DNA of 64,000 nucleotides, taken from contig METP01000033.1 in NCBI GenBank assembly GCA_001771365.1, forward strand, positions 11,325-75,324. The letters are read 5' to 3'. A model generated the notes under the pieces. It saw nothing but the letters and a program-made list of their open reading frames with translations, was not told the DNA's origin and did no database searches. Below are positions 18,884 to 30,228 of this stretch, piece after piece. The translations under genes were made by a program, and so were the position numbers. Numbering within the stretch: the stretch's first letter is position 1; every line of letters begins with the position of its first letter. The stretch is from a candidate division WOR-1 bacterium RIFCSPLOWO2_02_FULL_46_20. GTDB lineage: Bacteria; Margulisbacteria; WOR-1; O2-12-FULL-45-9.

Positions 18884-18968
18884 GCCGCTGTGGCGGAACT
18901 GGCAGACGCGCTTGACTCAAAATCAGGTTGGGTTTACCCCAGTGTCGGTTCAACTCCGACCAGCGGCA
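18884..18968 (+). tRNA. tRNA-Leu (anticodon CAA), type II with a long variable arm; CCA not encoded
   Basis: Manual fold: acceptor GCCGCTG/CAGCGGC, anticodon stem CTTGA/TCAGG with loop CTCAAAA, variable arm TTGGGTTTACCCCAGT, T arm GTCGG-TTCAACT-CCGAC. Confidence 0.8.
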
Positions 18969-18982
18969 TTAAAAAATCTCGT

Positions 18983-19066
18983 GCCCAGGTGGCGGAACTG
19001 GCAGACGCGCTAGCTTCAGGAGCTAGTGGGGTCAAACCCGTGGAGGTTCAAATCCTCTCCTGGGCA
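18983..19066 (+). tRNA. tRNA-Leu (anticodon CAG), type II; CCA not encoded
   Basis: Manual fold: acceptor GCCCAGG/CCTGGGC, anticodon stem CTAGC/GCTAG with loop TTCAGGA, T arm GGAGG-TTCAAAT-CCTCT. Confidence 0.8.
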
Positions 19067-19176
19067 TTTGAATTTTACCGCAAACCATTCCGTGCCGCGC
19101 TGGCCCTTCTGATTATACTCAACCCTCCCCAGCGGGCGCGTACCTTCAGCCCCCACTCAAATAATTGCGCCCGCTC
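19067..19176. repeat. Direct repeat copy 1 (92 nt identical to 23170-23261, about 110 nt similar), immediately 3' of tRNA-Leu(CAG); left boundary of the R-M island
   Basis: Read directly from the sequence. tttgaattttaccgcaaaccattccgtgccgcgctggcccttctgattatactcaaccctccccagcgggcgcgtaccttcagcccccactc is identical in both copies. The following roughly 20 nt are related. Confidence 0.9.
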
Positions 19177-19217
19177 TTACCGAGTGCATTTGCCTATTAC
19201 CAAAATTTGAGGTATTA

Positions 19218-20138
19218 TTGAAATTAGGTGCCAGCATACAAATGAACGCTGAACAAGAAAATAAAGAATCAACAACCCCTCTCGCTAAATATCTACAAAG
19301 CAATGATGTTTTGCTGATGTTATATCCCAAAGACGAAAATGGATATTTTTCAGAAAGCATACAACAAAAAGATGAGATCTCAATCTATAAACTCATCAAG
19401 GATAAAAAGGAATACAAAGAAACCCTACTGATTTTTCTAAACACAAGTGGCGGGAATGTTTATTCCGCAGTAAAAATAATGGATTCTTTGAGAACAAAAT
19501 ACAAAAAGATTACAATCGCTATTCCGCAAGAAGCAAAAAGCTCCGGAACGATGATGTGCTGTGGTGCTAACAAACTCATTCTGAGCCCGATCTCAGAATT
19601 AGGGCCACTTGATAAACCGATGGTGCATCCTGACAAAGAAACGGCCAGGATATCCGCACTAGATATTGTTAAATCCATAGATGGGATGTTAGATACAGCA
19701 GAGGAAAGACAAAAGATGTTGGCAAGAGGGTTTAATGAGGAATTCGGGGTGCCAATCGAAAAAAGCCTTGTTCTTGCCAGCGAATCGACTTCAAAGCTTA
19801 TTTCTCCGATGCTATGCAGGGAAGATGTTAAATTTTATAATCAAGCGAAGCGCTTACTCGCGATAGCAGAAAAATATGGCACTGAATTATTAATAAACTA
19901 TATGCTCAAATATATTGACAAAGACAAGCTAAGGGAAAAAATCGCCTCAATGATAATTAGACGACTAGTGTGGCTATATCCTGATCATGGGTTTGCTATC
20001 AGACGCAACGAATTAAAAGAGTGGTTTTTTACTATCGAGGATTCAGAAAATATGGAATGTTGGGATGAATTGTGGAAAGAATTTGAAAAGAGCATTGAAA
20101 ATGGTGGCCGCAAATTGATCAAATTTATGGGCGCATAA
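19218..20138 (+). CDS. Clp/crotonase-fold serine peptidase-like protein (SDH / S49-like), island cargo
   Basis: LIFLNTSGGNVYSAVKIMDSLRTKYKKITIAIPQEAKSSGTMMCCGANKLIL parallels the ClpP INSPGG…A.SMGA pattern, with candidate Ser in KSSGT and His in MVHPD. A TTG start sits behind a GAGG site, with an alternative ATG at 19242. The gene is AT-rich. Confidence 0.45.
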   Translation: MKLGASIQMNAEQENKESTTPLAKYLQSNDVLLMLYPKDENGYFSESIQQKDEISIYKLIKDKKEYKETLLIFLNTSGGNVYSAVKIMDSLRTKYKKITIAIPQEAKSSGTMMCCGANKLILSPISELGPLDKPMVHPDKETARISALDIVKSIDGMLDTAEERQKMLARGFNEEFGVPIEKSLVLASESTSKLISPMLCREDVKFYNQAKRLLAIAEKYGTELLINYMLKYIDKDKLREKIASMIIRRLVWLYPDHGFAIRRNELKEWFFTIEDSENMECWDELWKEFEKSIENGGRKLIKFMGA

Positions 20139-20140
20139 TC

Positions 20141-20359
20141 ATGCACAGAACATTTATGTCAAATTTTGATACGGACGAAAAAGGCCCCAATAAACCGGCG
20201 ATTGCGCCCGGGAACGCCGAATCACCACCTATTAGTGTGACAGAGAAATTAGTACGGGAAGAAATTAAAAAACTTAGCGAAAACTCAGAAGAATTAAAAA
20301 GGCTTAAAGAGCAGATGGCTAAAAAGACAAAGCATGAAGAATCTAGTGGGCAAAAGTAG
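20141..20359 (+). CDS. Hypothetical small hydrophilic protein (72 aa) coupled to the peptidase-like gene
   Basis: Its start lies 3 nt after the upstream stop. The product is charged and Lys/Glu-rich (…EEIKKLSENSEELKRLKEQMAKKTKHEE) with no recognisable family. Confidence 0.35.
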   Translation: MHRTFMSNFDTDEKGPNKPAIAPGNAESPPISVTEKLVREEIKKLSENSEELKRLKEQMAKKTKHEESSGQK

Positions 20360-20380
20360 CGCCTCTAAATCTCAAGCTGA

Positions 20381-21946
20381 TTAGCAAATAGTTAATTGAG
20401 TTTCTTTGCCAGACCATTTTAAGTCGATTGATTTCAAAAGATGATTAGCCCTAACATTGCCCAGCTCTTTTGGTTCTATTTTATGCAAGCCCCCACCATA
20501 AGTTCTGCATTCACTTTTTAGCTCTCTATGAACCAGCTTATTAAGTTCGTTAAATATGATTTCTTGTTTTTTCAAATCATCAACAATATATTTATTTAGC
20601 TGCTCTTTAGGGTAAAGCATTAAATATGTATTTGTTGCAATTGCCTTGCTTTTATTCCAAACAAATCGAAATGCCTCTTTATTAGCGGAACTCCTCCCCA
20701 TATAAGTGCATAAATATAGTGCTGGTTGTCGTTTTTCTTGTTTATACCATGGATGCCTTCTACTCGGCATATATTTATTATTTATATTTTTGGCTTCTCC
20801 GCTAATTAAATAATTGTAAAGCCCAGGACAATCTATTTTAATCGCATCCAGTGATTCATTGGTATTAATTATAAATAAGCGTTGTTTTAGAATAGGGTAT
20901 CCAGAATGATCGCCATTAACTATTTCACATTTTAAATAGCGAGGGCTGGGCAATAGTGGCGTGAGATAGGTAGGCCTAATGTTCAAGGAGGAAACCACAT
21001 CCTCTGTTAAAATGAAGTAATCATTATCTCCTGTTGCTATTCCCCGCCTTATGTCAAATATGTCTGACAATAGGATATCATTGTCCTTGCGCACAATGAA
21101 ACTAATATTATTAGAGAAGTGTGACCATTTTCTGGTTGGGCTCAGCTGATCCAAAGAAATTGTTTGAGTTTTATGGGGCACCATTAATGATCCACCGGAT
21201 GTAAACATAACTGATGTGTCTTTGTCAGGCTTTTTGTTCTGAAAAACAATAATGCAAGAAGACACAAGCGCATCTGCAAACTGTAGATCTTCCGGGTTAA
21301 ATCGATGAATGCGGATAAGCTTTACATTTTCAGTTAAATATTTCTTGAGCATTATGCCATAGTTGATATCCATAAAATCAGATGGCACCAACCATATGCT
21401 TATGCCATCAATATCAAGCCATTGATGGGCGCAATAAATAAAATAACAATATAAACTGGTCAATCCACTAACATTAAATCCCGTTATGCTCCTAATTATT
21501 TCTTTTAATTTATGCTTATGAGTTATATCTAAATGATGATGCCTAGAGTAAGGGGGATTTGTTATTAATAAATTATATCGTTCATTTTGTTTCGGCTGGG
21601 CTAATGTAAAATCTTGCAGTTTAACATCTAATCCATATCTACTCCAATTAGAAATAGCAATACCCGCATAACCCTTATCTATTTCAAAACCCTTTGCAGT
21701 ATTTATCTTCTTCACACCAAACGTCTTTAGTATTGCTGAAAAAAATGAGCCAGAGCCAATTGCCGGCTCAAGAAAATTAACTTTATTGCCATTTATTAGG
21801 CTGGAAGCATATATAGCGATCTCTTTTGCTAGAGACGGGGGGGTAGCATATTGGCCAAGGATATTTCGTTCTTTTAATGTTTTAAAAGAATCAATATCAT
21901 CTTGTTTTGTTAATCGGTCATTTTCGAGAAGTTCTATGGAGTTCAT
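20381..21946 (-). CDS. Gamma-class N6-adenine DNA methyltransferase (Eco57I / PstI-BsuBI-like type II MTase)
   Basis: Motif I (LEPAIGSGSF, AdoMet binding) precedes motif IV (LITNPPY). A long C-terminal target-recognition region follows. Confidence 0.8.
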   Translation of the reverse strand: MNSIELLENDRLTKQDDIDSFKTLKERNILGQYATPPSLAKEIAIYASSLINGNKVNFLEPAIGSGSFFSAILKTFGVKKINTAKGFEIDKGYAGIAISNWSRYGLDVKLQDFTLAQPKQNERYNLLITNPPYSRHHHLDITHKHKLKEIIRSITGFNVSGLTSLYCYFIYCAHQWLDIDGISIWLVPSDFMDINYGIMLKKYLTENVKLIRIHRFNPEDLQFADALVSSCIIVFQNKKPDKDTSVMFTSGGSLMVPHKTQTISLDQLSPTRKWSHFSNNISFIVRKDNDILLSDIFDIRRGIATGDNDYFILTEDVVSSLNIRPTYLTPLLPSPRYLKCEIVNGDHSGYPILKQRLFIINTNESLDAIKIDCPGLYNYLISGEAKNINNKYMPSRRHPWYKQEKRQPALYLCTYMGRSSANKEAFRFVWNKSKAIATNTYLMLYPKEQLNKYIVDDLKKQEIIFNELNKLVHRELKSECRTYGGGLHKIEPKELGNVRANHLLKSIDLKWSGKETQLTIC

Positions 21947-21947
21947 T

Positions 21948-22898
21948 TTATAACCCCAATTTAATCATATCGTCAATTCGATGCTCCCAGATCCAATCAA
22001 TTCCTTCAGCAGCTTCATATCCAAGATAACCGCTATCAAAGTACCCACACAGGAAAAGCATAAAATTAATCTTTGCCCCATAAGTATCTTTGAGTTGCCT
22101 TATTTTTGTGGCCTCCTCTTTTCGTCTTTTATTTGTATTTGTAAAATCGCCCGCAGATTTGGCCTCAATTAATATGGGGTATTGATTTGCCCCGGCCTTA
22201 TTAGGCATAATTACTACGTCAATTGGTATATTTACTTTGTGTTTATTTCCAACAGAAATATTTAATCTAAAGGTGAAAGTGCCTTTTTTCATGTTCTGCC
22301 AATCAGTAATTTCGGAGGGGGATAAATATTTATAGCCTAGTTTTTCCAAGTATTTTAAAATATTCATCAATTGACGTTGTTCTTGAGCATTCCGTATAAT
22401 CGGGTCCGCTACTGCTCCACACAATCTATCTGCGATAATTGTTGATGCTCTTTCGCACTCATGAGCATCCGGGGTTCGATCTTCTTCTAGCCAAGGAATA
22501 ATATCACTATCAATCAATTTACATATTATCGAGCATATTCTATTCAAGTATTCATCGAGGACTTTCCCCTTCATTTGAGGTGGCAATTTCCCCTCCTCCA
22601 TACTGAGTATAAGATGCTTAGCGATAGAAGTTAATCCTACTAAACGATCTCTTGCGATTGGGGGACAGGTTGACATGCGTAATGTTTGAATAATGGACGG
22701 GTGTTTTTTAAGAATAGCTGGGGTGAGCTTCTGCAGATTGCTTGTTAATTTAAATGTTTCCAGGACTGTATTTGATGTATCTTTCCTGGTTATCCTAAAT
22801 GTTTTAGGGGCAAATTTTATAAACCACTTATTATAATAATCTACCGATTCAGCAATGTCTTTTTTCCATAAGGCAGGTTTATTTGCGTTGATTGCCAT
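21948..22898 (-). CDS. Restriction endonuclease candidate (PD-(D/E)xK), partner of the MTase
   Basis: The C-terminal …PIDVVIMPNKAGANQYPILIEAKSAGD gives a D…(E)AK PD-ExK pattern. The stop abuts the MTase start (1-nt gap). The start was placed at MAINANKPALWKK (22898). The ORF tool extends to 23138 through a non-conserved Cys-rich stretch. Confidence 0.5.
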   Translation of the reverse strand: MAINANKPALWKKDIAESVDYYNKWFIKFAPKTFRITRKDTSNTVLETFKLTSNLQKLTPAILKKHPSIIQTLRMSTCPPIARDRLVGLTSIAKHLILSMEEGKLPPQMKGKVLDEYLNRICSIICKLIDSDIIPWLEEDRTPDAHECERASTIIADRLCGAVADPIIRNAQEQRQLMNILKYLEKLGYKYLSPSEITDWQNMKKGTFTFRLNISVGNKHKVNIPIDVVIMPNKAGANQYPILIEAKSAGDFTNTNKRRKEEATKIRQLKDTYGAKINFMLFLCGYFDSGYLGYEAAEGIDWIWEHRIDDMIKLGL

Positions 22899-23083
22899 GA
22901 TAATGGGGTTATTATACCATATACCAAAAGAAGAATAACAATGGCATATCAACCCACAAAAACACACTAGTGCCAGAATGTTTTTATTACAGTTTATCCT
23001 CAGAAGGATTCTCAAGAAGCGGTTTTTTCGACGTATGGGGGAGAAAAACCGCTTCTTCGACAAACCTACATTCTGTGCAAGTC

Positions 23084-23169
23084 TTTTTTCTTGCATCCAT
23101 GAATGGTGTTGGGTATAATCAATGAGATAGCCCGGCATTGAATGGTTTGAGAACCAGAGGGTCGAGGCA
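23084..23169 (+). promoter_or_regulatory. Near-consensus sigma70 promoter (TTGCAT-17-TATAAT, 23091-23119) plus a 40-nt leader gcccggcattgaatggtttgagaaccagagggtcgaggca; copy A of a duplicated module
   Basis: Read directly from the sequence. About 85 nt are shared with 30144-30228 (ttcttgca.cc.tgaat.g.gttgggtataat … gcccggc..tgaatggtttgagaaccagagggtcgaggca). Confidence 0.6.
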
Positions 23170-23280
23170 TTTGAATTTTACCGCAAACCATTCCGTGCCG
23201 CGCTGGCCCTTCTGATTATACTCAACCCTCCCCAGCGGGCGCGTACCTTCAGCCCCCACTCGCATAAATGGCGCCCGCTG
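23170..23280. repeat. Direct repeat copy 2 (right boundary of the R-M island)
   Basis: The first 92 nt are identical to copy 1. Both copies contain the stem ccagcgggcgcg … ggcgcccgct. Confidence 0.9.
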
Positions 23281-23558
23281 ACAAGTAAATCGACACGATT
23301 TATTTTTTTGCCCTTGACACTGCTGAATTCTCTGCCATATAATTCCACTTAGTGGTAAGGGGGAATTCGCTAAGATGGATCATCTATCTGTCTAAAAACC
23401 AGTCCCTCCACTTTTTAATAAGGTGCGGCCCGGATTTCTCTTCTTGACAGAGGCAAACTAAAATAGCATAATTTGTTTGTAAATGCTTCAAAGAGGGGAA
23501 CGGCGGAGTCAATCAGCCCATTTTGTGTCAGTATCGCAGATTTTCCGGGACGGTATAA

Positions 23559-24074
23559 ATGGTTAAAGACAAGATAGATCAAATACTTGAAAAGATCGAT
23601 TCGTTAGAAACCGGTCAGAAGTCATTAGTAGCCGGTCAGAAGTCATTAGAAACCGGTCAGAAGTCATTAGTAGCCGGTCAGAAGTCATTAGTAGCCGGTC
23701 AGAAGTCATTAGAAACCGGTCAGAAGTCATTGGAAACCGGTCAGAAGTCATTGGAAACCGGTCAGAAGTCATTAGTGGCCGGTCAGAAGTCATTAGAAAC
23801 CGGTCAGAAGTCATTAGTAGCCGGTCAGAATAAAAATTATGGTTTGATTCAAAAACAAGGCATCATGCTGGAACAGGTCGCTTCTGATGTAAAAGCAGTG
23901 GCGGAAGGACATGCGGCAATAAGGAATGAAATGCAAAGAGGATTTGAAGAAGTTAAAGAACAAATAAAATTCGTGGATGATAAATTGGGATTTGTAGCTA
24001 ATCAGCTTGGCGAAAAAATCGATCGCGTTGAGCAGAAACTGGACGAGCACGTCAAACTGCCAGCACATGTTTAG
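23559..24074 (+). CDS. Tandem-heptad-repeat protein (ETGQKSL / VAGQKSL, about 17 repeats) with a coiled-coil-like C-terminal domain
   Basis: Built from 21-bp DNA tandem repeats (23607-23830). Two upstream sigma70-like promoters lie at 23315-23343 (TTGACA…CATATAAT) and 23444-23471 (TTGACA-16-CATAAT). No signal peptide is present. Confidence 0.6.
   Translation: MVKDKIDQILEKIDSLETGQKSLVAGQKSLETGQKSLVAGQKSLVAGQKSLETGQKSLETGQKSLETGQKSLVAGQKSLETGQKSLVAGQNKNYGLIQKQGIMLEQVASDVKAVAEGHAAIRNEMQRGFEEVKEQIKFVDDKLGFVANQLGEKIDRVEQKLDEHVKLPAHV
23607..23830 (+). repeat. About 10.5 tandem copies of a 21-bp unit (gaaaccggtcagaagtcatta / gtagccggtcagaagtcatta) inside the CDS
   Basis: Read directly from the sequence. 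The repeat is in-frame, so each unit encodes one heptad. Confidence 0.9.
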
Positions 24075-24143
24075 GATAATTTTACCCCCCCATTCTAATC
24101 GCGGATTCTTCCTTAATCCTGCCAGTATTTTTGAGGCCTTACT

Positions 24144-24617
24144 GTGAAAAAAAGAATAAGGCCAAAGACCATGCCTGCAAATATTAAACCAAAATCTTTT
24201 CCCATCGTCGGTATCGGTGGTTCGGCTGGAGGGCTGGGGGCATTCGAGGCACTGCTTAAAAATATCTCGGCTAAACCGGGAATGGCGCTAGTCTTTATTA
24301 TGCATTTAACCCCGGGCCATAAAAATCTCCTGCCGGAACTGCTGACCAGGGTGACGAAAATGCCGGTCAGTGAAATACAAAGCGGCCTGATCCCCGAGAT
24401 CAACCATGTTTATGTCAAACCGCCCAACACCGACCTGGCTATCGACGGCAGGAAATTTTTACTTAGCACCAGGGAAAACGCCAGTATCAGACATCTGCCC
24501 ATAGATTATTTTTTCCGTTCCTTGGCGGCAGAGTGCGGCAATAGAGGTATCGGAGTTATTCTGTCCGGCACCGCCACCGACGGGACACTGGGAGCCGGGA
24601 CGATCAAGTCCGCCTGA
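24144..24617 (+). CDS. CheB-type methylesterase catalytic domain, C-terminally truncated, with no receiver domain (possible gene fragment)
   Basis: IVGIGGSAGGLGAFEALL, VFIMHLTPGH and GTATDG match the Ser-, His- and Asp-containing blocks of CheB_methylest. The final roughly 35 aa of the domain are missing, and the ORF terminates before the convergent GT4 gene. Confidence 0.5.
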   Translation: MKKRIRPKTMPANIKPKSFPIVGIGGSAGGLGAFEALLKNISAKPGMALVFIMHLTPGHKNLLPELLTRVTKMPVSEIQSGLIPEINHVYVKPPNTDLAIDGRKFLLSTRENASIRHLPIDYFFRSLAAECGNRGIGVILSGTATDGTLGAGTIKSA

Positions 24618-24656
24618 CTTCCGCACCCGCCTGAATAACTAAAGCGGTAATAAATA

Positions 24657-25886
24657 TTAACCTTGAATAATATCTTCGTTCGGATGATCCAGGGCGATCA
24701 GCAAAGCTAAATAATTCCTGAGCTTCCGGGTGATCAGGAATTTCTCCCGGACATGTTCCCGCCCATATTCTCCCATTTTTTTTGCCGCCTGGGGATTATT
24801 GATCAGATAACGGATTTGATAAGCGGTCCCCTCAATTGAATGGACAAGCAAGCCGGTGAAATTATGGATAATCTGCAAGGTGATCCCGCCGACCGCCGAT
24901 GCCACGACCGGCTTGGCTTTCCACAGCGCTTCGGTAACCGTCAGCCCGAATCCTTCCCGCAACGATTTCTGCACTATAACAGTTGACGCTCTTTGCAGGG
25001 CGTTAATCTCCAAATCCGCGTATGGCGGCAGCAGTAGAATGTGTATGTCAGGATCATTTTTAGCCGCTTCCTGCACCTGGTTCAGCACCTGCCCCCCTTC
25101 CGGATCATCGGTCGCTCCCCCGCCAGCCAGTACCAACTGGCAATCATTATGTCTCTTTACCAATTTGTAAGCTTCGATCACCCCGAGAGGGTCTTTAAGA
25201 TAATCAAACCGGGAAATTTGCGTGATGATCGGCCGCGACCGGTCAAGCTTATACTTGCGCGCGACCGTCTCAATCTCGGCAGCGGAAAGATCGCGGTTTT
25301 TTTCGGCTAACGGATCAATGGCCGGGTAGATAAAGTATTTTGGCGCGGCTAGCTTCCTGGCAAACCAGGGAGTGGAAAAGACCGAGGCGTCATATTTTTC
25401 AATATAGCCCTTGAGAAAATCCCAGACATCCGCTTGGGGATGGGAGGTGTCAATGTGGCACCGCCAGACCCATTTGGCTTTTGATCTCTCCTTGGCGGCA
25501 ATAAGACCCGCCGGCTGGGGGTCATGGACAATGACCACGTCCTCATCGAAGGACATTTCGGCAAGATTAGCTGCCGTCGTTTCCTGGAAAACCTTGAACA
25601 TTTCCGTGGAGATATCCGATTTAATCCCGTGCAGGGCGTTATGGAAAGTTTTGGTCACGCCAAAGAACGGTCCGCTCCCCTTGATCACGTCCCATTTGGT
25701 TTTAATGCCGAGCTCATTATAGAGCGGCACGACACGGGTCAGTATCTCCGCCACGCCGCCCCCCACCGCGGTTGAATTGACCATCCTGACGCGTTTACCG
25801 GCGGCTTTTTCCGCCAGCAGCATCAGTTCGTCAAAATTCTGCGGTCGGATGAAGCGAGAATATTCCGCTATCTTATTTTGAGCCAT
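24657..25886 (-). CDS. GT4-family retaining glycosyltransferase, TreT (trehalose glycosyltransferring synthase)-like
   Basis: The C-terminal EX7E motif REGFGLTVTEA is present. The N-terminal block VNSTAVGGGVAEIL…VIKGSGPFFGVTKTFHNALHG recalls TreT-type GT4 enzymes. The gene is the last in a trehalose operon. Confidence 0.55.
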   Translation of the reverse strand: MAQNKIAEYSRFIRPQNFDELMLLAEKAAGKRVRMVNSTAVGGGVAEILTRVVPLYNELGIKTKWDVIKGSGPFFGVTKTFHNALHGIKSDISTEMFKVFQETTAANLAEMSFDEDVVIVHDPQPAGLIAAKERSKAKWVWRCHIDTSHPQADVWDFLKGYIEKYDASVFSTPWFARKLAAPKYFIYPAIDPLAEKNRDLSAAEIETVARKYKLDRSRPIITQISRFDYLKDPLGVIEAYKLVKRHNDCQLVLAGGGATDDPEGGQVLNQVQEAAKNDPDIHILLLPPYADLEINALQRASTVIVQKSLREGFGLTVTEALWKAKPVVASAVGGITLQIIHNFTGLLVHSIEGTAYQIRYLINNPQAAKKMGEYGREHVREKFLITRKLRNYLALLIALDHPNEDIIQG

Positions 25887-26557
25887 TTAAATATCCTGCC
25901 GATCAAGCCATCTCTTTTCTTACGGACCAGAGCAATAATCCGGTCGCGGAGCTGGTCCATAGTGTAAATATAAGGGTCCAAAGCTTCGATCTTCTTTGCC
26001 AGAATTTCATCGCCGTAATTATCCTTGATCCAGTTTGAAAAGTCGTTGCTCCGTTTTGCCAGCCGCAGGCGCGCTTCAAAAAAGTGGAAAAAGAGGGAGC
26101 GCAGGCCGACTTTTTTCAACGCGGCGCAAAACTCATCATAATCCCAGGCCTCATACCTGGTCTTTAAAACGATACCGATCGCCCGGCAGAAATAAAAACC
26201 GCGCTTGGCCGGGACCGTCCCGCCAGCGGGATTCTGGTTTAAATAGCCGTCCAGTATCTCAACGATCTTGTCCCGTAGCGCCCCGAGTTCTGTATAGTCC
26301 TTGATATTAATATTGGCCAGACGCTCCGCCAGGACATGCTCGCCAATCTCTTCTTCCACCCAGTGGGCAAAATCGTTTGTGTAAACCCCGGGCGCGAACT
26401 GGTGTTCGCGGAAAGCGTGGTGGACGTGGTAAAAGATCGATGACTCATCTATCCCCTTCAATATTTCCCTGAATTCTTTGAGATCGCCAGCCTTCTGGCT
26501 GGTGATCTCCACCAGTTGGGAAGAGGTATAAAACTCAAAAGCTGTTTTGGCAGTCAT
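25868..26557 (-). CDS. Conserved hypothetical protein (229 aa) co-operonic with the trehalose genes
   Basis: The ORF overlaps the GT4 gene start by 19 nt. I recognise no family for it. Confidence 0.45.
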   Translation of the reverse strand: MTAKTAFEFYTSSQLVEITSQKAGDLKEFREILKGIDESSIFYHVHHAFREHQFAPGVYTNDFAHWVEEEIGEHVLAERLANINIKDYTELGALRDKIVEILDGYLNQNPAGGTVPAKRGFYFCRAIGIVLKTRYEAWDYDEFCAALKKVGLRSLFFHFFEARLRLAKRSNDFSNWIKDNYGDEILAKKIEALDPYIYTMDQLRDRIIALVRKKRDGLIGRIFKWLKIR

Positions 26558-26576
26558 TATATAATAATAAAAATAG

Positions 26577-26960
26577 TTATTCCTTGACCTTTGTTTTCAG
26601 TCTCTCAACTTCCTGCTTGAGTTCTTTAATTTGTTTGATCAAAAAGGGAATGTTCGGCTTATCGGTTTTATCTTGTGGAAAAGTTCCCGCGACGATCTCT
26701 TCAAAATTGGTGAACCGGTCCTGGTCAGAATCGATATCAGCGATCTTCGCAAAGTTATGTCCCGCGTTTTTGAAATCAAGGGCAAATGGGCCTTGCTCTT
26801 TCATTTTGCCTTTGACAGGATGGCAGGTGGAGCAGGCAGCTAGTTTTGTCCCTGCGGCATCCGGATAATTCTTTTTGAAGGATTCAAGATATTTAGGCGT
26901 AGCAAAAAGAGCGGAACTTGAAAAAATAGAAATCAGACTCACTAATAAAAGAAAACGCAT
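26577..26960 (-). CDS. Small secreted protein with a single CxxCH heme-c-like motif and a DxDxD Ca-binding-like (dockerin/EF-hand-like) segment
   Basis: The signal peptide is MRFLLLVSLISIFSSSALFA. The motifs are AACSTCHP and DIDSDQDRFTNFEEI. The C-terminus is a coiled coil (KQIKELKQEVERLKTKVKE). Confidence 0.45.
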   Translation of the reverse strand: MRFLLLVSLISIFSSSALFATPKYLESFKKNYPDAAGTKLAACSTCHPVKGKMKEQGPFALDFKNAGHNFAKIADIDSDQDRFTNFEEIVAGTFPQDKTDKPNIPFLIKQIKELKQEVERLKTKVKE

Positions 26961-26971
26961 AACTCCCCCCT

Positions 26972-27688
26972 TTATTTATCAACTAAACATAAAAGAAAAC
27001 GGTAAACTGCCGCGACATTAGCCAAATGGCCGTCAACCAGGCTACCTCCGCCGAACCCCACCTTAATAGAAAAACCCACCCCCTTTAACGCCCTAAAGGC
27101 GTCTTCATCAGTCTTATCGTCGCCGATATAAACAGGAGCATATTTTTGCAGCTTCAGGTTTTTAATAAGCCAGCGTACCGCCTTCCCTTTATCCCAATCA
27201 GCCGGCGGGCGGACATCAAATATTTTTTTGCCGGTCGTTATCTTAATGGCACGCCGCCACGGTTTAAGCGCCAGCTTAAAATCCCTTTTGAAAGCATGGA
27301 TAGCTGACATGGCAAGTGAGCGATAATGGACGCTAAGGGTCAAGCCTTTATCTTCAATCAATAAGCCCCGGTAATGGAGTTTGTTCTTAAGTTCGGCTTT
27401 GATCTTTTTTAGCAGCGGAAGTGTTTTTTTTGCGGCCGGATGCACCCAATGCTTCCCGCTGGCCAATATCTCAAACCCGTGGTTGCCAACATAAATAATA
27501 TTACGGATACCAGCCAGTCTTTTGACAACCGATAACTTACGGCCGGAGATGATCGCCAATTTAATTTCGGGATGGCGGGCTAACCGTTTGAGCAGTTTTT
27601 TTCTGGGCGCGGACAGGACTGCCCGTTGCGGATTTTCGACGATAGGCGTCAGCGTTCCGTCATAATCGAGCATCAGGAATAACTTCAT
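26972..27688 (-). CDS. otsB: Trehalose-6-phosphate phosphatase (HAD-IIB)
   Basis: Carries LMLDYDGTLTP (HAD motif I) and IGDDKTDEDAFRAL (T6PP motif). The start was placed at MKLFLM, which immediately abuts the otsA stop. Confidence 0.8.
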   Translation of the reverse strand: MKLFLMLDYDGTLTPIVENPQRAVLSAPRKKLLKRLARHPEIKLAIISGRKLSVVKRLAGIRNIIYVGNHGFEILASGKHWVHPAAKKTLPLLKKIKAELKNKLHYRGLLIEDKGLTLSVHYRSLAMSAIHAFKRDFKLALKPWRRAIKITTGKKIFDVRPPADWDKGKAVRWLIKNLKLQKYAPVYIGDDKTDEDAFRALKGVGFSIKVGFGGGSLVDGHLANVAAVYRFLLCLVDK

Positions 27689-29919
27689 GTTTTTTGCAGT
27701 TCGGTCAGGTTGGTGATAATACTTGCCGCCCATTTATAAACATTGTTGTCGGCTACGACCTTACGCATGCTCTCCATGCGCCGCTTTTGTTCTTCCGGCG
27801 GCATGACGCAGGCAGTCTTGAGGCTGTCGGCAAACTCTTCGATGGCATAAGGGTTGATCTGCAGCGCTTCGGTCAGCTCCCTGGCCGCGCCGGTAAATTT
27901 ACTTAAGAGCAGGACTCCCGCCAGGTCATTCTTTGCCGCCACGTATTCTTTAGCCACCAGGTTCATACCATCGTGCAGCGAACTGACGACGCAAATGTCG
28001 CCGAGCCGGTAATAAGGCTTGATCTCCTCCGGAGTAAAGTACTCTTTTAAGTAGATTATCGGTCGCCAGGCGCCGTTGGTATATTTGCTGTTCTTTTTTT
28101 CTATCAACCGCTCGATCTCGTCCGACAGGTCGTGGTAGCGTTTGATCTTGGTCCGGCTGGGAGCGGCCAACTGCAAAAAGACGAACTTGTTCAGGTATTC
28201 CGGATATTTTCCCAGGAAACGGTCGACGGCCAGGATTCTTTCAACAATACCTTTCGTATAATCAATCCGGTCAACGCCGACGGCCACGATTTTTCCGGCC
28301 AGATCGTATTTCTCTCTTATCCGGTCGATCTCCCTGGCTTCATTGGCTGTGACCGAATAGCGTGATACCCCCTCGATGCTGATCGGGAATGGCCGGACCA
28401 GCGTTTCTTTGCCTGACCTGACAACGCTGTTCTTCTCGTTATCAACACGGCATTCCAGCAGGCGGTTGGCGGTTTCCAGAAAATTATTACAATGATATTG
28501 CACATGGAAGCCGACCAGGTCGCACCCCAGCATCCCATCCAGTATCTCTTTTTGATAAGGACAGACGGAAAAGACCTCCGGGTTCGGCCAGGGGATATGC
28601 CAGAAGAGCGCGATCGTGACATCCGGCCGCTTGTCCTTGATCATCTTGCCCAGCAGCGTGAAATGATAATCCTGGATAAAAACAAAGGCATTTTTGGCCG
28701 GCAGCTCCTCAATAACGCTGTCAGCAAACTTTTGGTTTACCTGTTTATACATCTGCCAGTCGGCTTCCCGGAAGATCGGGCGGGTGAAAGTAATATGACT
28801 AAGCGGCCAGAGGCCTTCGTTGGCAAAACCGTAATAGAAGCCGCCTTCCTCTTCGGGCGTCAGCCAAATTCTTTTTAGGATGTAGCGATTGTCTTCGGGC
28901 GGTACCCCGAGCTTGTCCTTGGAATTCACGAATTGCCGATCGGCGTTGCCGCTCCCCTGGGCAATCCAGGTTCCGCCGCAGGCCCGCATGATCGGATTGA
29001 GTGCCGTCACCACGCCGCTGGCCGGACGGACATATTTTGCCGCCCCCGTCCGCTCATCAAGCACGTGCATGAACGGCTCCCGGTTGGAAACAATAACCAT
29101 AGAGCTGTCGCCGAGTTTGGCGTTGACCAGGTCCTTTAATTTACTTTCCGTCCAGATCTCGTCCTTTTTCAATCTGATCGTGGCCGCTTCGGCCATGCTC
29201 TTTTTGGCCACCCTCAGGCTAAGGGCAACCTGCTCAACCTCACTGGCCAGCTCACCTAATTCACTCTTTTGGCTGATCTCATGCATCTTGCTGGTTTCAC
29301 CCTTCTGGAAATGTTTGAACCAAACCGTGAGCTGCCGCATCGGCACCAGAAACATCTGGCGGAGTACCAGCGCGGCAATGAGCAACAGCGAAATAACCAG
29401 CAAGACCAGCGTGATGATCATGTTCCGCCAAAAGTCCATTGACCGGGCAAAAACATAAGAGGTGTCATAGATCATCTCGACCATGCCAAGTATTTTCCCC
29501 TGGTCATCAAGCACCGGTATAATGTGGCTATAGACATAGATTTTTTTGAATTTCCCCAACAGGTCACTGGCTTCCTTGTTTTTAAGGGCATCTCGATAAT
29601 ATTCGCGCTCTTCGTCTTTCCAATCCCTGAACCTCTCCGTGATCGCTATTAATTTCCCTTCCCGATCGTAAAGCGCGCAGCCCTGGATATTCTTTTTATT
29701 CTGGAATCTCTTAACCAGACGTTGAGCCCCGGCTTGGTCATTATTGGCAAGAACATAACCGGCCGACAACTCCAGGCTTTCCGCGACAGTTTCGGCTTTC
29801 CGCTTGAGATCATCCATTAGTTTATCTTCTTCATATCTGACCTGGATAACGCCAAAAATGATGATAACCAGCGAAACGATGATGATAAGCGGCAAAGCAA
29901 AGACAATTGTTTTTTTCAT
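27685..29919 (-). CDS. otsA: Trehalose-6-phosphate synthase (GT20 OtsA domain) fused to an N-terminal TM–extracytoplasmic sensor–TM–HAMP module
   Basis: The GT20 core runs from about aa 269 (VIVSNREP…, FANEGLWPLSH, FIQDYHFTLLG, FWHIPWP). The N-terminus has TM1 at about aa 7-27, a loop of about 140 aa, TM2 (MIITLVLLVISLLLIAALVL) and a HAMP-like segment PMRQLTVWFKHFQKGE…SELGELASEVEQVALSL. Confidence 0.8.
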   Translation of the reverse strand: MKKTIVFALPLIIIVSLVIIIFGVIQVRYEEDKLMDDLKRKAETVAESLELSAGYVLANNDQAGAQRLVKRFQNKKNIQGCALYDREGKLIAITERFRDWKDEEREYYRDALKNKEASDLLGKFKKIYVYSHIIPVLDDQGKILGMVEMIYDTSYVFARSMDFWRNMIITLVLLVISLLLIAALVLRQMFLVPMRQLTVWFKHFQKGETSKMHEISQKSELGELASEVEQVALSLRVAKKSMAEAATIRLKKDEIWTESKLKDLVNAKLGDSSMVIVSNREPFMHVLDERTGAAKYVRPASGVVTALNPIMRACGGTWIAQGSGNADRQFVNSKDKLGVPPEDNRYILKRIWLTPEEEGGFYYGFANEGLWPLSHITFTRPIFREADWQMYKQVNQKFADSVIEELPAKNAFVFIQDYHFTLLGKMIKDKRPDVTIALFWHIPWPNPEVFSVCPYQKEILDGMLGCDLVGFHVQYHCNNFLETANRLLECRVDNEKNSVVRSGKETLVRPFPISIEGVSRYSVTANEAREIDRIREKYDLAGKIVAVGVDRIDYTKGIVERILAVDRFLGKYPEYLNKFVFLQLAAPSRTKIKRYHDLSDEIERLIEKKNSKYTNGAWRPIIYLKEYFTPEEIKPYYRLGDICVVSSLHDGMNLVAKEYVAAKNDLAGVLLLSKFTGAARELTEALQINPYAIEEFADSLKTACVMPPEEQKRRMESMRKVVADNNVYKWAASIITNLTELQKT

Positions 29920-30143
29920 TGATCGGCCTTCATAGGTCTTCTTCGGGCTCCCTCAATATCCGTGAGTAGCAATAGATGTTTAGCGCAAGTATGCAGGTTA
30001 GCGAAACGATCATAAATATCCAGCCGTATATGTTCATCGGAAACAACCTCCAAGGATTTGGATAATCCTTGAATCCGTTCAAATTTTATCACTTTATCAT
30101 GTGACTGTCGAATATTATTCTCAAGAATAGCCGATGTAAATCA

Positions 30144-30228
30144 TTCTTCTTGCACCCGTGAATTGAGTTGGGTATAATAAAAGTGATGGCCCGGCCCTGA
30201 ATGGTTTGAGAACCAGAGGGTCGAGGCA
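30144..30228 (+). promoter_or_regulatory. Copy B of the promoter–leader module (TTGCAC-17-TATAAT at 30150-30178 plus a 40-nt leader), oriented antisense to the 3' end of the Ca-ATPase gene
   Basis: About 85 nt are shared with 23084-23169. The sequence diverges after gtcgaggca. Confidence 0.55.

What the first reader, a model, noticed from the sequence alone, without database searches (positions are those of the whole stretch)
19067..23280. AT-rich restriction-modification island inserted at the 3' end of tRNA-Leu(CAG), bracketed by long direct repeats (92 nt identical, about 110 nt similar)
The segment 19.2-23.1 kb is visibly AT-rich (about 35% GC against about 50% in the flanking carB and acc genes). 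It carries a peptidase-like gene, a micro-ORF, a gamma-class N6-adenine MTase and a PD-ExK REase candidate. It is delimited by two direct copies of the same sequence (19067-19158 = 23170-23261). The left copy begins at the first base after the tRNA. No integrase or transposase is present. A long duplication without a recombinase matches the 'insertion with long target duplication' mode described for mobile R-M units. It does not match a classical tRNA-integrating element.
Basis: partly seen in the sequence, partly recalled or inferred. Interest (0 to 1): 0.7.

Follow-up and report, generated by a model that had tools for sequence, protein, structure and literature searches.

The report
Restriction-modification cassette beside tRNA-Leu gene
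A 4-kb foreign, AT-rich block carrying a restriction-modification system and a protease gene pair sits right after a tRNA-Leu gene in an uncultivated Margulisbacteria (WOR-1) genome, and its flanking "long repeats" are the standard end-pieces of a local family of tRNA-targeting insertion cassettes, so this is a fairly ordinary genomic islet.

Summary
The two repeat copies (19063-19158 and 23166-23261) are identical over 96 nt, followed by a diverged 17-nt tail. They bracket a 36% GC segment in a 47.5% GC window. The segment encodes a full-length XamI-family REase, a gamma-class N6A MTase, and a ClpP-fold SDH protease with a conserved ~70-aa partner. It holds no recombinase.

The repeat is not anonymous target DNA. 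It is the left-end module of a lineage-specific family that is multi-copy in related genomes. The island's right end (23014-23169) is the family's right-end module: a terminator hairpin plus a promoter-like core ending ...GGTCGAGGCA.

Related Margulisbacteria show inserts with these same ends placed exactly at the ...GGCA 3' end of tRNA-Leu(CAG) or tRNA-Leu(GAG). Other relatives have the same sites empty. In one relative a large serine recombinase gene lies next to that junction.

Best reading: the island is a recombinase-less cargo cassette of a tRNA-Leu-targeting integrative family. The repeat is the same end module present twice, probably because a second cassette (23170-30228) lies in tandem.

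A true long target duplication is not excluded. No empty site exists in any sampled population.

The parts
18884..18968 (+). tRNA-Leu(CAA)
   Evidence: ARAGORN; Rfam tRNA, 54.9 bits.
18983..19066 (+). tRNA-Leu(CAG). Its last bases ...GGCA form the left junction, the presumed attachment point.
19063..19176. Left copy of the long direct repeat, the family left-end module (h2 + C + D).
   Evidence: It is 96 nt identical to 23166-23261, followed by a diverged tail.
19067..19090 (+). h2 motif TTTGAATTTTACCGCAAACCATTC. The same motif follows ...GGCA in L096, L100, L103, L105 and L111.
   Evidence: Alignment; sequences.
19079..19125 (-). Module C: an inverted, diverged copy of the B core (GTTGAGTATAAT...GAATGGTTTG on the minus strand).
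   Evidence: nhmmer with the B profile; 81% identity over 43 nt to the L105 B copy.
19124..19177 (+). Module D: a GC hairpin, AGCGGGCGC-loop-GCGCCCGCT.
   Evidence: nhmmer D profile, E=2.5e-14; predicted fold of -18.7 kcal/mol.
19218..20138 (+). SDH-type ClpP-fold serine protease (cargo). The likely true start is the ATG at 19242, giving 298 aa.
   Evidence: Pfam PF01972/PF00574 and NCBIfam Clp_like_SDH. Homologues of 60-77% identity come mainly from Patescibacteria. A 298-aa gene call appears in GCA_001772355.1.
20141..20359 (+). Conserved ~70-aa partner of the protease (cargo).
   Evidence: It is 40-44% identical to the ORF immediately downstream of the protease homologues in L108 and L109.
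20381..21946 (-). Type II gamma-class N6-adenine DNA methyltransferase.
   Evidence: Pfam Eco57I and N6_Mtase; PADLOC MTase_II, E=5e-130; PDB relatives M.BseCI and M.TaqI; motif I at aa 60 and NPPY at aa 130.
21948..22898 (-). XamI-family Type II restriction endonuclease (316 aa).
   Evidence: Pfam RE_XamI, E=2.8e-104; PADLOC REase_II, E=2.4e-116, full length; ID227...E245AK motif.
23014..23057 (.). Module A: a bidirectional terminator-like hairpin (15-bp stem, loop GACGTATGGGGGAG).
   Evidence: Predicted fold of -21.4 kcal/mol. The loop is conserved and the stems differ in L100, L101, L103 and L105.
23076..23169 (+). Module B, copy P1: TTGCAT-17-TATAAT promoter-like core plus ~50 nt ending ...GGGTCGAGGCA. 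This is the family right end and the right junction of the island.
   Evidence: It is 91% identical over 162 nt (A+B) to L105. Similarity stops exactly at GGCA in all copies.
23166..23280 (.). Right copy of the direct repeat (h2 + C + D). Together with B it forms a dyad, ATGGTTTG-N34-CAAACCAT, centred on GGCA.
   Evidence: inverted repeat I3.
23281..30134 (.). Putative body of a second, older cassette of normal GC: a 7-aa-repeat protein, a CheB-domain fragment and a trehalose synthesis cluster.
   Evidence: Gene content; 48.3% GC. Its status as a cassette is inferred only from the end modules.
30135..30228 (+). Module B, copy P2 (85% identical to P1). It ends at GGCA, 3 nt before the stop codon of the convergent P-type ATPase gene.

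Best explanation
The segment 19067-23169 is a recombinase-less cargo cassette. It belongs to a lineage-specific (Margulisbacteria/WOR-1) family of integrative elements that insert exactly at the ...GGCA 3' end of tRNA-Leu genes.

Cargo:
- A Type II R-M system: a XamI-family REase and a gamma-class m6A MTase, probably active, specificity unknown.
- A protease/partner gene pair of Patescibacteria affinity.

Termini, which are the family's conserved ends:
- Left end: the h2 motif, an inverted B-like core (C) and a GC hairpin (D).
- Right end: a terminator hairpin (A) and an outward-facing promoter-like core (B) ending ...GGTCGAGGCA.

Recombination occurs at GGCA, which lies at the centre of a dyad-symmetric site (ATGGTTTG-N34-CAAACCAT). 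Autonomous relatives appear to use a large serine recombinase encoded next to the h2 end. This copy would depend on such an enzyme in trans, or is now fixed.

The 'long direct repeat' is the family's left-end module present twice: once at the tRNA junction, and once immediately after the island's right end, where it most likely starts a second, older cassette (23170-30228, ending in B copy P2). That arrangement is a tandem accretion. The 96-nt perfect identity is attributed to shared ancestry or gene conversion between the two end modules.

Shown: the anatomy, the family, the with/without comparisons in relatives, and the proximity of a recombinase gene in relatives. Inferred: the enzyme, the order of events, the tandem status of 23170-30228, and promoter activity.
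For: 1. Family membership of the ends. B-profile hits occur at window 23076-23169 and 30135-30228, plus partial inverted hits inside both repeat copies. Further B hits occur in L015, L100 (x2), L101, L102, L103 (x2), L104, L105 (x3) and L111. D-profile hits occur in both window repeats and in L103, L104, L105 (x2), L111 and, weakly, L100.

2. Sharp common boundary. All B copies lose similarity right after GGCA.

3. With/without comparisons.
- L015 has tRNA-Leu(GAG)...GGCA | 1.24-kb insert ...B...GGCA | fliK leader. The window and L016 have tRNA | the same leader.
- L111 has tRNA-Leu(CAG)...GGCA | h2 + recombinase remnant + D - 4 genes - A-B...GGCA | rho promoter. L016 and L020 have tRNA | rho promoter.

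4. Junction motif. The h2 motif follows GGCA after either a tRNA or a B module in 7 junctions.

5. Dyad. Arms 23129-23149 and 23184-23204 are centred at 23166/23167, inside GGCA.

6. Recombinase link.
- L096 (AccA 81% identical) has the 3' end of a large serine recombinase homologue (aa 373-455, E=8.5e-15) about 58 nt from tRNA-Leu(CAG)|h2.
- L103 has an intact Resolvase+Recombinase+Zn_ribbon protein plus a C-terminal fragment abutting B|h2.

7. End-module conservation. A+B is 91% identical to L105. AccA DNA is only 69% identical to L104, which I link to L105 only through their near-identical 1233-aa helicase gene.

8. Identity profile of the repeat. All four internal differences between the copies (3 substitutions and 1 indel) fall within the last 18 of 114 columns (P about 6e-4 if random). 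Both copies keep a complete D hairpin.

9. Foreign cargo. GC is 36% against 47.5%. REase homologues are spread over many phyla at about 60% identity. The protease homologues come from Patescibacteria.
Against: - No recombinase is present in this 64-kb window, and none of the contigs carries a complete autonomous element with both ends.
- The link to a serine recombinase rests on proximity in three or four fragmentary contigs.
- Serine integrases normally do not recombine attP with attL, so a simple second integration is not expected to give a tandem.
- The two left ends are 100% identical over 96 nt, whereas the two right ends (P1 and P2) are only 85% identical. This needs an extra assumption (conversion or duplication).
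- P2 ends 3 nt from the stop codon of a convergent gene, an unusually tight 'native' tRNA flank.
- The cargo of the putative second cassette has host-like GC and housekeeping-like genes.
- No excised circle or empty site has been seen.
- The C module (inverted B) at the left end is not present in L111, so left ends are heterogeneous.
Confidence: 0.5

Rival explanations
1. This is a genuine 'insertion with long target duplication' in the sense of Nobusato/Furuta/Kobayashi. Linear DNA carrying the cargo and the A-B module entered next to the tRNA, and about 96-113 nt of resident sequence (the pre-existing h2-C-D unit) was duplicated during insertion, without a site-specific recombinase.
For: - The structure meets the formal criteria of PMC2853133: R and M lie inside the insert, the insert is under 20 kb, the repeat exceeds 30 bp, and no mobility gene is present.
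- The 96-nt perfect identity is what a recent duplication gives, and it is much higher than the ~76-88% identity seen between other family copies.
- The right copy continues into flank that is homologous to the sequence downstream of D in L104 and L105, as expected for the original target.
Against: - The repeat is a conserved element-end module of a multi-copy family. Furuta et al. screened out such cases by repeat copy number.
- Family members in L015 and L111 inserted at tRNA-Leu genes without any long duplication.
- The junction sits at the centre of a dyad site.
- The left copy keeps a complete but diverged D 3' stem. A 96-nt duplication would not supply this, and random drift is unlikely to produce it (P about 6e-4).
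- No empty site is available to show a single copy.
Confidence: 0.25
2. The cargo moved by general (RecA) homologous recombination at dispersed P-family repeats. Either a circular or tandem DNA carrying one C-D unit crossed over with the resident C-D unit (Campbell-type), or cassettes are exchanged between strains using the conserved junction modules as portable homology, as with Neisseria minimal mobile elements. No dedicated recombinase is involved.
For: - A single crossover between a 113-nt homology on a circle and the chromosome gives exactly cargo bracketed by direct copies.
- The abrupt change from 100% to about 70% identity looks like a recombination or conversion end point.
- In L105, P-family modules in direct orientation flank gene blocks at lower identity (76%), so flanking by family repeats is a general layout.
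Against: - A single crossover between two non-identical units does not by itself create a 96-nt identical tract.
- It does not explain why all family boundaries fall exactly at GGCA, or why tRNA-Leu 3' ends substitute for B at junctions.
- 96-113 nt is short, though feasible, for RecA-dependent integration.
Confidence: 0.17
3. This is a coincidence of pre-existing repeats. Two independent family copies already lay about 4 kb apart or adjacent, the R-M genes landed between them by an unrelated event, and the copies were later homogenised.
For: - Furuta et al. list 'chance insertions between repeated sequences' as a class.
- The family is multi-copy.
Against: - The AT-rich cargo fills the interval exactly from the end of D to the start of A.
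- Inserts in L015, L111 and probably L104 have the same layout.
- An extra conversion step is required.
Confidence: 0.06

Closest known systems
Dehalococcoides ssrA-specific genomic islands (ssrA-GIs) and SCCmec-type serine-recombinase elements (McMurdie et al. 2011, PMC3146451)
   Same: - Tandem islands lie directly downstream of a small structured-RNA gene.
- The recombinase gene is on the reverse strand next to attL.
- Some islands lack an integration module but keep the boundary repeats (CIME-like, 'accretion').
- Cargo is low-GC and breaks synteny.
- ParB-like genes occur in related blocks (L105).
   Different: - The target here is the extreme 3' end (...GGCA) of tRNA-Leu isoacceptors, not the T-loop region of ssrA.
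- The shared core is only 4-6 nt.
- The right end carries a conserved terminator plus promoter-like module.
- The left end can contain an inverted copy of that module.
- The role of the recombinase is not shown.
R-M gene insertion with long target duplication (Nobusato et al. 2000; Furuta et al. 2010, PMC2853133)
   Same: R and M genes with no linked mobility gene are bracketed by direct repeats of about 100 bp, and the insert has lower GC than the genome.
   Different: The repeat here is a conserved module of a dispersed element family rather than unique target sequence. No empty site is available. The junctions coincide with a tRNA 3' end and with the centre of a dyad site.
cis-mobilizable elements (CIMEs) and tandem accretion at tRNA or fda sites in streptococcal ICEs (reviewed in PMC5704250; listed, not read)
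   Same: The element is flanked by att-type ends, has no recombination or transfer genes, and lies in tandem with another element that shares the same ends.
   Different: CIMEs were defined next to tyrosine-integrase ICEs. Here no partner autonomous element is present in the window, and mobilisation has not been tested. The CIME features given here rest on my own knowledge of that literature.
XamI-family Type IIP R-M systems (Pfam PF09572 with an Eco57I/TaqI-like gamma MTase)
   Same: There is a full-length match to the family profile. The R-then-M co-directional two-gene unit is the same as in L106 and L107.
   Different: Specificity is unknown. XamI itself cuts GTCGAC (from my own knowledge), but GTCGAC is not depleted in the window, although the test has low power. 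The system is linked here to a protease gene pair.

Membership tests
Type II restriction-modification system (XamI-family REase + gamma-class m6A MTase) | REase matches the XamI family profile over its full length. | tested here: met
   Pfam PF09572, E=2.8e-104, profile positions 2-256 of 256. PADLOC REase_II, E=2.4e-116, positions 2-311 of 315.
Type II restriction-modification system (XamI-family REase + gamma-class m6A MTase) | Adjacent MTase has the AdoMet motif I before NPPY (gamma order) and a C-terminal target-recognition part. | tested here: met
   Motif I at aa 60 and NPPY at aa 130. Pfam Eco57I and N6_Mtase, with M_Eco57I_C precomputed. PDB relatives are M.BseCI and M.TaqI.
Type II restriction-modification system (XamI-family REase + gamma-class m6A MTase) | Cleavage and methylation activity at a defined site. 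| not testable with these tools
   Palindrome-avoidance analysis of the 60-kb host sequence gave no signal. Methylome or enzyme data are needed.
R-M insertion with long target duplication (Furuta et al. 2010 criteria) | R and M genes inside an insert under 20 kb, flanked by direct repeats over 30 bp, with no mobility gene. | tested here: met
   The criteria are quoted.
R-M insertion with long target duplication (Furuta et al. 2010 criteria) | A related genome shows the empty site with a single copy of the repeat. | tested here: inconclusive
   Exact empty-site pattern scans found 0 hits in metagenome and genome collections. All contigs found through AccA, the MTase and the CheB-like protein carry the island. 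The nearest other relatives are 82% identical in AccA.
R-M insertion with long target duplication (Furuta et al. 2010 criteria) | The repeat is unique target sequence, not a multi-copy or mobile-element sequence. | tested here: not met
   The exact sequence occurs only twice in the window. However, its modules belong to a family with many copies in related contigs and two further B copies in the window.
Site-specific integrative element at a tRNA gene | Insertion lies precisely at the tRNA 3' end, with a short shared core at both junctions. | tested here: met
   GGCA(TTTG) is present at both 19063 and 23166. The same GGCA junction occurs in L015, L096 and L111.
Site-specific integrative element at a tRNA gene | Occupied and empty states of the same site exist among relatives, for family members. 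| tested here: met
   At tRNA-Leu(GAG), L015 is occupied while the window and L016 are empty. At tRNA-Leu(CAG), L111 and L101 are occupied while L016 and L020 are empty. This was not obtained for the R-M island itself.
Site-specific integrative element at a tRNA gene | The element encodes an integrase or recombinase. | tested here: not met
   There is none in the island or the window. A large serine recombinase or its remnants lies next to the same end motif in L096, L103, L105 and L111.
Site-specific integrative element at a tRNA gene | Excision to a circle and re-integration. | not testable with these tools
   This needs raw-read junction mapping or an experiment.
CIME / tandem accretion | An element with att-type ends but no mobility genes lies in tandem with another element sharing those ends. 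| tested here: inconclusive
   The layout is: end modules at 19063-19176, then 23014-23169 followed directly by 23166-23280, then B copy P2 at 30135-30228. The status of the second unit is inferred only.
Integron gene cassette (attC) | attC reads 5'-RYYYAAC...GTTRRRY-3', and an IntI integrase lies nearby. | tested here: not met
   The GTTGGGT...ACTCAAC pair lies in the opposite order on both strands (sequence read). No IntI-like gene is present.
IS / MITE-type transposon | Terminal inverted repeats with a target-site duplication and a transposase. | tested here: not met
   Inverted B-like ends exist (43 nt, about 81%). There is no short target-site duplication and no transposase. The left inverted copy lacks the terminal 20 nt.
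Known structured RNA for the repeat or the B module | Match to an Rfam covariance model, or covariation in an alignment. | tested here: not met
   Rfam at E<=1 and E<=0.1 returned only tRNAs and chance miRNA-hairpin hits. RNAalifold on 8 copies found 0 compensatory pairs.

The most novel reading that the evidence does not exclude
Margulisbacteria may possess a previously undescribed cassette system. In it, small recombinase-less gene cassettes (defence genes such as this R-M, but also metabolic genes) stack at tRNA-Leu 3' ends. Each cassette would be bounded by a standard left module and a standard right module, the right one supplying a terminator and an outward promoter that re-drives the displaced downstream genes. 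A large serine recombinase acting in trans on a dyad site centred on GGCA would mobilise them. Functionally this would resemble an integron-like accretion platform built on tRNA genes.
Probability: 0.3. Interest if true: 0.6.

Novelty: new member of a known kind. Interest (0 to 1): 0.38.

Why it matters
The R-M system and its position next to a tRNA gene are ordinary. The useful result is a correction. A textbook-looking 'long target duplication without recombinase' turns out, once relatives are examined, to be the repeated end module of an integrative-element family.

This cautions against inferring a special R-M-driven insertion mechanism from a single genome.

It also flags a tractable family of tRNA-Leu-targeting cassettes in an uncultivated phylum. 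The family has conserved terminator and promoter-like ends and a candidate serine recombinase, and could be mined for new integrase/att pairs and for defence-island hot spots.

Tried and rejected
- Empty-site search. An exact pattern (tRNA end + 85-115 nt + right flank) found nothing in JGI metagenomes or GTDB genomes. Exact-protein look-ups for AccA, the MTase and the CheB-like protein returned only occupied sites or contigs broken at repeats.
- Closer relatives. AccA homologues jump from 100% to 82% identity, so no near-isogenic comparison is possible.
- Known RNA. Rfam found nothing for the repeat or the B module. The consensus fold of the B transcribed part is weak and has no covariation.
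- Recognition-site inference from palindrome avoidance gave no signal. GTCGAC was observed 5 times against 5.1 expected.
- Phage origin of the end modules. There were 0 hits in IMG/VR for two patterns.
- Protease as a known defence component. There were no PADLOC hits.
- Integron attC reading of GTTGGGT/ACTCAAC: rejected because the order is inverted.
- B as a degraded tRNA or tRNA-like minihelix: rejected because no acceptor or T-arm register fits.
- A large 22-kb mobile island from the tRNA to rho: rejected. The region 23.3-41.4 kb has host GC and includes the F-ATP synthase operon and no recombinase, so it is a synteny rearrangement.
- The apparent variant in L012 is a 130-nt unrelated contig tail, probably chimeric.
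- The gene-call differences (67 vs 72 aa, 298 vs 306 aa) are differences in start-codon choice on identical DNA.

Full report
**1.

ARAGORN and Rfam place tRNA-Leu(CAA) at 18884-18968 and tRNA-Leu(CAG) at 18983-19066. The direct repeat is real.
- 19063-19158 is identical to 23166-23261. That is 96 nt, including the last four tRNA bases GGCA.
- A 17-18 nt tail follows with three substitutions and one indel, up to about 19176 and 23280.
- A 32-nt core of the repeat occurs only at these two places in the window, with none expected by chance.

The enclosed DNA (19178-23011) is 36.3% GC against 47.5% for the rest of the window, and each of the four genes is 35-40% GC.

The same structure, with both repeat copies, is present at >=99.7% identity in more than ten independent assemblies. 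These include GCA_001772355.1, a candidate division WOR-1 (Margulisbacteria) MAG from the Rifle aquifer. It is therefore not an assembly artefact.

**2. Gene content**
- REase: the gene is 21948-22898 (316 aa), not the 396-aa ORF. It matches Pfam RE_XamI over the whole profile (E=2.8e-104) and a PADLOC Type II REase model end to end (E=2.4e-116). It carries an ID227...E245-A-K motif. It has no relative of solved structure detectable by sequence.
- MTase: 20381-21946. It matches Eco57I/N6_Mtase profiles and a PADLOC Type II MTase model (E=5e-130). Motif I lies before NPPY, the gamma order, and its nearest solved relatives are M.BseCI and M.TaqI.
- REase homologues at about 60% identity occur in many phyla, as plain R-M two-gene units in unrelated contexts. 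The closest one (76%) shares only the coding DNA, not the flanks.
- Protease pair: the protease-like gene (19218-20138; ClpP-fold SDH type, below curated cut-offs) and the 72-aa ORF form a conserved pair. Homologues of 60-77% identity come mostly from Patescibacteria and are always followed by a homologous ~68-aa ORF. In one case the pair lies beside a C5-MTase, and in another it lies 4 kb from a large serine recombinase.

No recombinase lies in the island, in the next 22 kb or anywhere in the window.

**3. Genomic setting**

In related Margulisbacteria the order is accD-accA-tRNA-Leu(CAA)-tRNA-Leu(CAG)-rho-folC-like-tRNA-Leu(GAG)-flagellar genes.

In this genome 22 kb separates tRNA-Leu(CAG) from rho. 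Apart from the island, that stretch has host-like GC. It contains a trehalose cluster, a P-type ATPase, a permease and the F-ATP synthase operon. That part is a chromosomal rearrangement, not one large mobile element.

The tRNA pair lies at a recurrent synteny break. It is inverted in several relatives, and different genes follow it in others.

**4. The repeat is not anonymous target DNA**

The 94 nt just left of the right repeat copy (23076-23169, 'B') has a second copy in the window at 30135-30228 (85% identical). It also has a copy in relative L015 (80% identical). B consists of TTGCAT-17-TATAAT plus about 50 nt ending ...GGGTCGAGGCA.

A degenerate pattern built from these copies retrieved six more metagenome contigs. 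Profile searches then found 15 B hits and 7 D hits among the loci held then, and one more of each in L111. All hits lie in Margulisbacteria-type contigs. None lies in the roughly 80 loci from other phyla or in IMG/VR.

The repeat itself is made of family modules:
- Its 5' half (C) is an inverted, diverged B core.
- Its 3' half (D) is a conserved GC hairpin.

Upstream of B lies module A, a terminator-like hairpin whose loop is conserved while its stems differ between loci.

A+B is 91% identical over 162 nt to a copy in L105. AccA DNA is only 69% identical to L104; I link L104 to L105 only by their near-identical 1233-aa helicase gene.

Rfam finds no known RNA in these modules, and eight B copies give no covariation.

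**5. What the modules mark**

In every copy, similarity to B stops exactly after GGCA. Two clean with/without comparisons show that B is the right terminus of DNA inserted at a tRNA-Leu 3' end.
- tRNA-Leu(GAG): L015 has tRNA...GGCA | 1.24-kb insert with two small genes ...B...GGCA | fliK leader. The window and L016 have tRNA...GGCA | the same leader.
- tRNA-Leu(CAG): L111 (and L101) has tRNA...GGCA | h2 motif + recombinase-gene remnant + D - four genes - A-B...GGCA | rho promoter. L016 and L020 have tRNA | rho promoter.

The R-M island has the same architecture: tRNA...GGCA | h2-C-D - cargo - A-B...GGCA |.

The 22-24 nt 'h2' motif (TTTGWWTTTTACMGCRAACCAT) follows GGCA in seven junctions. The left partner is a tRNA-Leu(CAG) in the window, L096 and L111. 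It is a B module in the window, L100, L103 and L105.

In the window, B and h2 form a dyad, ATGGTTTG-N34-CAAACCAT. Its centre (23166/23167) falls inside GGCA. This is what a site-specific recombination site would look like.

In L096 (AccA 81% identical) the h2 motif next to tRNA-Leu(CAG) is followed by the 3' end of a large serine recombinase homologue on the reverse strand (E=8.5e-15; the contig ends there). L103 has an intact Resolvase-Recombinase-Zn-ribbon protein plus a C-terminal fragment abutting B|h2. L105 and L111 keep remnants of the same 3' region.

**6. Most likely history (inference)**

The island is a recombinase-less member of this family, comparable to the cis-mobilizable islands in Dehalococcoides ssrA-GI arrays. 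Those arrays also have a serine recombinase on the reverse strand next to attL, and tandem islands that lack integration modules (PMC3146451).

The junction at 23166 (B|h2-C-D) is attP-like. The right repeat copy is then best read as the left end of a second unit that runs to B copy P2 at 30228, which ends 3 nt before the stop codon of the convergent ATPase gene.

The repeat's identity profile shows 96 identical nt and then a diverged tail, with both copies retaining a complete D hairpin. The clustering has P about 6e-4. This points to a recombination or conversion boundary rather than a duplication followed by drift.

Weak points:
- No recombinase is present here.
- No complete autonomous element was recovered.
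- Serine integrases do not normally use attL as a target.
- The left ends are far more alike (100%) than the right ends (85%).
- The second unit's cargo looks like host DNA.

**7. Rivals**

A genuine long target duplication of the resident h2-C-D unit (PMC2853133) remains possible (0.25). It explains the perfect 96 nt. It does not explain the diverged yet functional D tail, the GGCA/dyad junction, or why family members elsewhere insert without a long duplication. Furuta et al. themselves exclude multi-copy repeats from this class.

RecA-mediated recombination at the dispersed repeat (0.17) and chance flanking with later homogenisation (0.06) are less complete explanations.

**8. Verdict**

The sequence features are confirmed. 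The R-M system is an ordinary, probably functional, horizontally acquired Type II system with an unusual protease-pair neighbour. The mechanistic reading offered by the first stage is only partly right.

The finding is best filed as a new member of a known kind: a tRNA-associated genomic islet or CIME-like cassette. The modular end family and its candidate serine recombinase are a moderately interesting lead.

No empty site or circular form could be found. The decisive tests therefore need raw reads, complete genomes or experiments.

Noticed in passing
window 23559-24074: This ORF contains about 11-15 tandem 21-nt (7-aa, GQKS-containing) repeats. The copy number differs between otherwise >99.9% identical metagenome contigs (products of 108, 171 and 185 aa), and assemblies often break there.
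   Followed up: partly
window 24171-24617: A stand-alone, truncated CheB-methylesterase domain protein (Pfam positions 1-133 of 174) lies between the repeat protein gene and a trehalose synthesis cluster (TreT, DUF5752, T6P phosphatase, dCache-TPS).
   Followed up: no
L015, L019, L095, L098, L110 (tRNA pair next to accA); L019 10922-10977: The tRNA-Leu(CAA)/(CAG) pair is inverted relative to accA in several relatives. L019 carries a 56-nt duplicate of the 3' half of tRNA-Leu(CAG) about 140 nt from the gene. This is a possible scar of another integration.
   Followed up: no
L110 ~11375-11396; L111 ~11108-11128; L102 upstream of its B copy: A GC palindrome, CCTGCCTGCCGGCAGGCAGG, interrupts tRNA-Leu-like sequences and creates pseudo-tRNAs. 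It also lies beside a B module. It may be a small palindromic insertion element.
   Followed up: no
window 30181-30200 (P2) and B copies in L101, L103, L104: Seven nt after the TATAAT of module B there is a possible leaderless mini-ORF, ATG GCC CGG CCC TGA (M-A-R-[P/H/Q]-stop). The start codon is not conserved in P1 (ATA), L105 (ATT) or L015 (ACG).
   Followed up: partly
L108 4010-7145; L109 1-6193: The SDH-type protease and its ~68-aa partner form a conserved gene pair in Patescibacteria-like contigs. In one case it follows an unknown 263-aa protein and a C5-MTase. In another it lies near a large serine recombinase. It may be an R-M-associated or mobile-element accessory module of unknown function.
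   Followed up: partly
L105 354-11480; L104 319-4461: Gene blocks that look defence-related (DUF2779 + 1233-aa SNF2 helicase; radical SAM + two ParB-like + SNF2 + a 140-aa protein) are separated by P-family modules. In L104 the same helicase block sits directly after tRNA-Leu(CAG) and a C-D-type module.
   Followed up: partly
L012 4382-4511: The last 130 nt of this contig are unrelated to the window, although the rest is 100% identical. This is probably a chimeric contig end inside the protease gene.
   Followed up: yes
window 22899-23011 (minus strand): The REase gene has a TATAAT only about 14 nt upstream of its ATG, so the R-M transcript may be nearly leaderless. No C-protein (controller) gene is present.
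   Followed up: no
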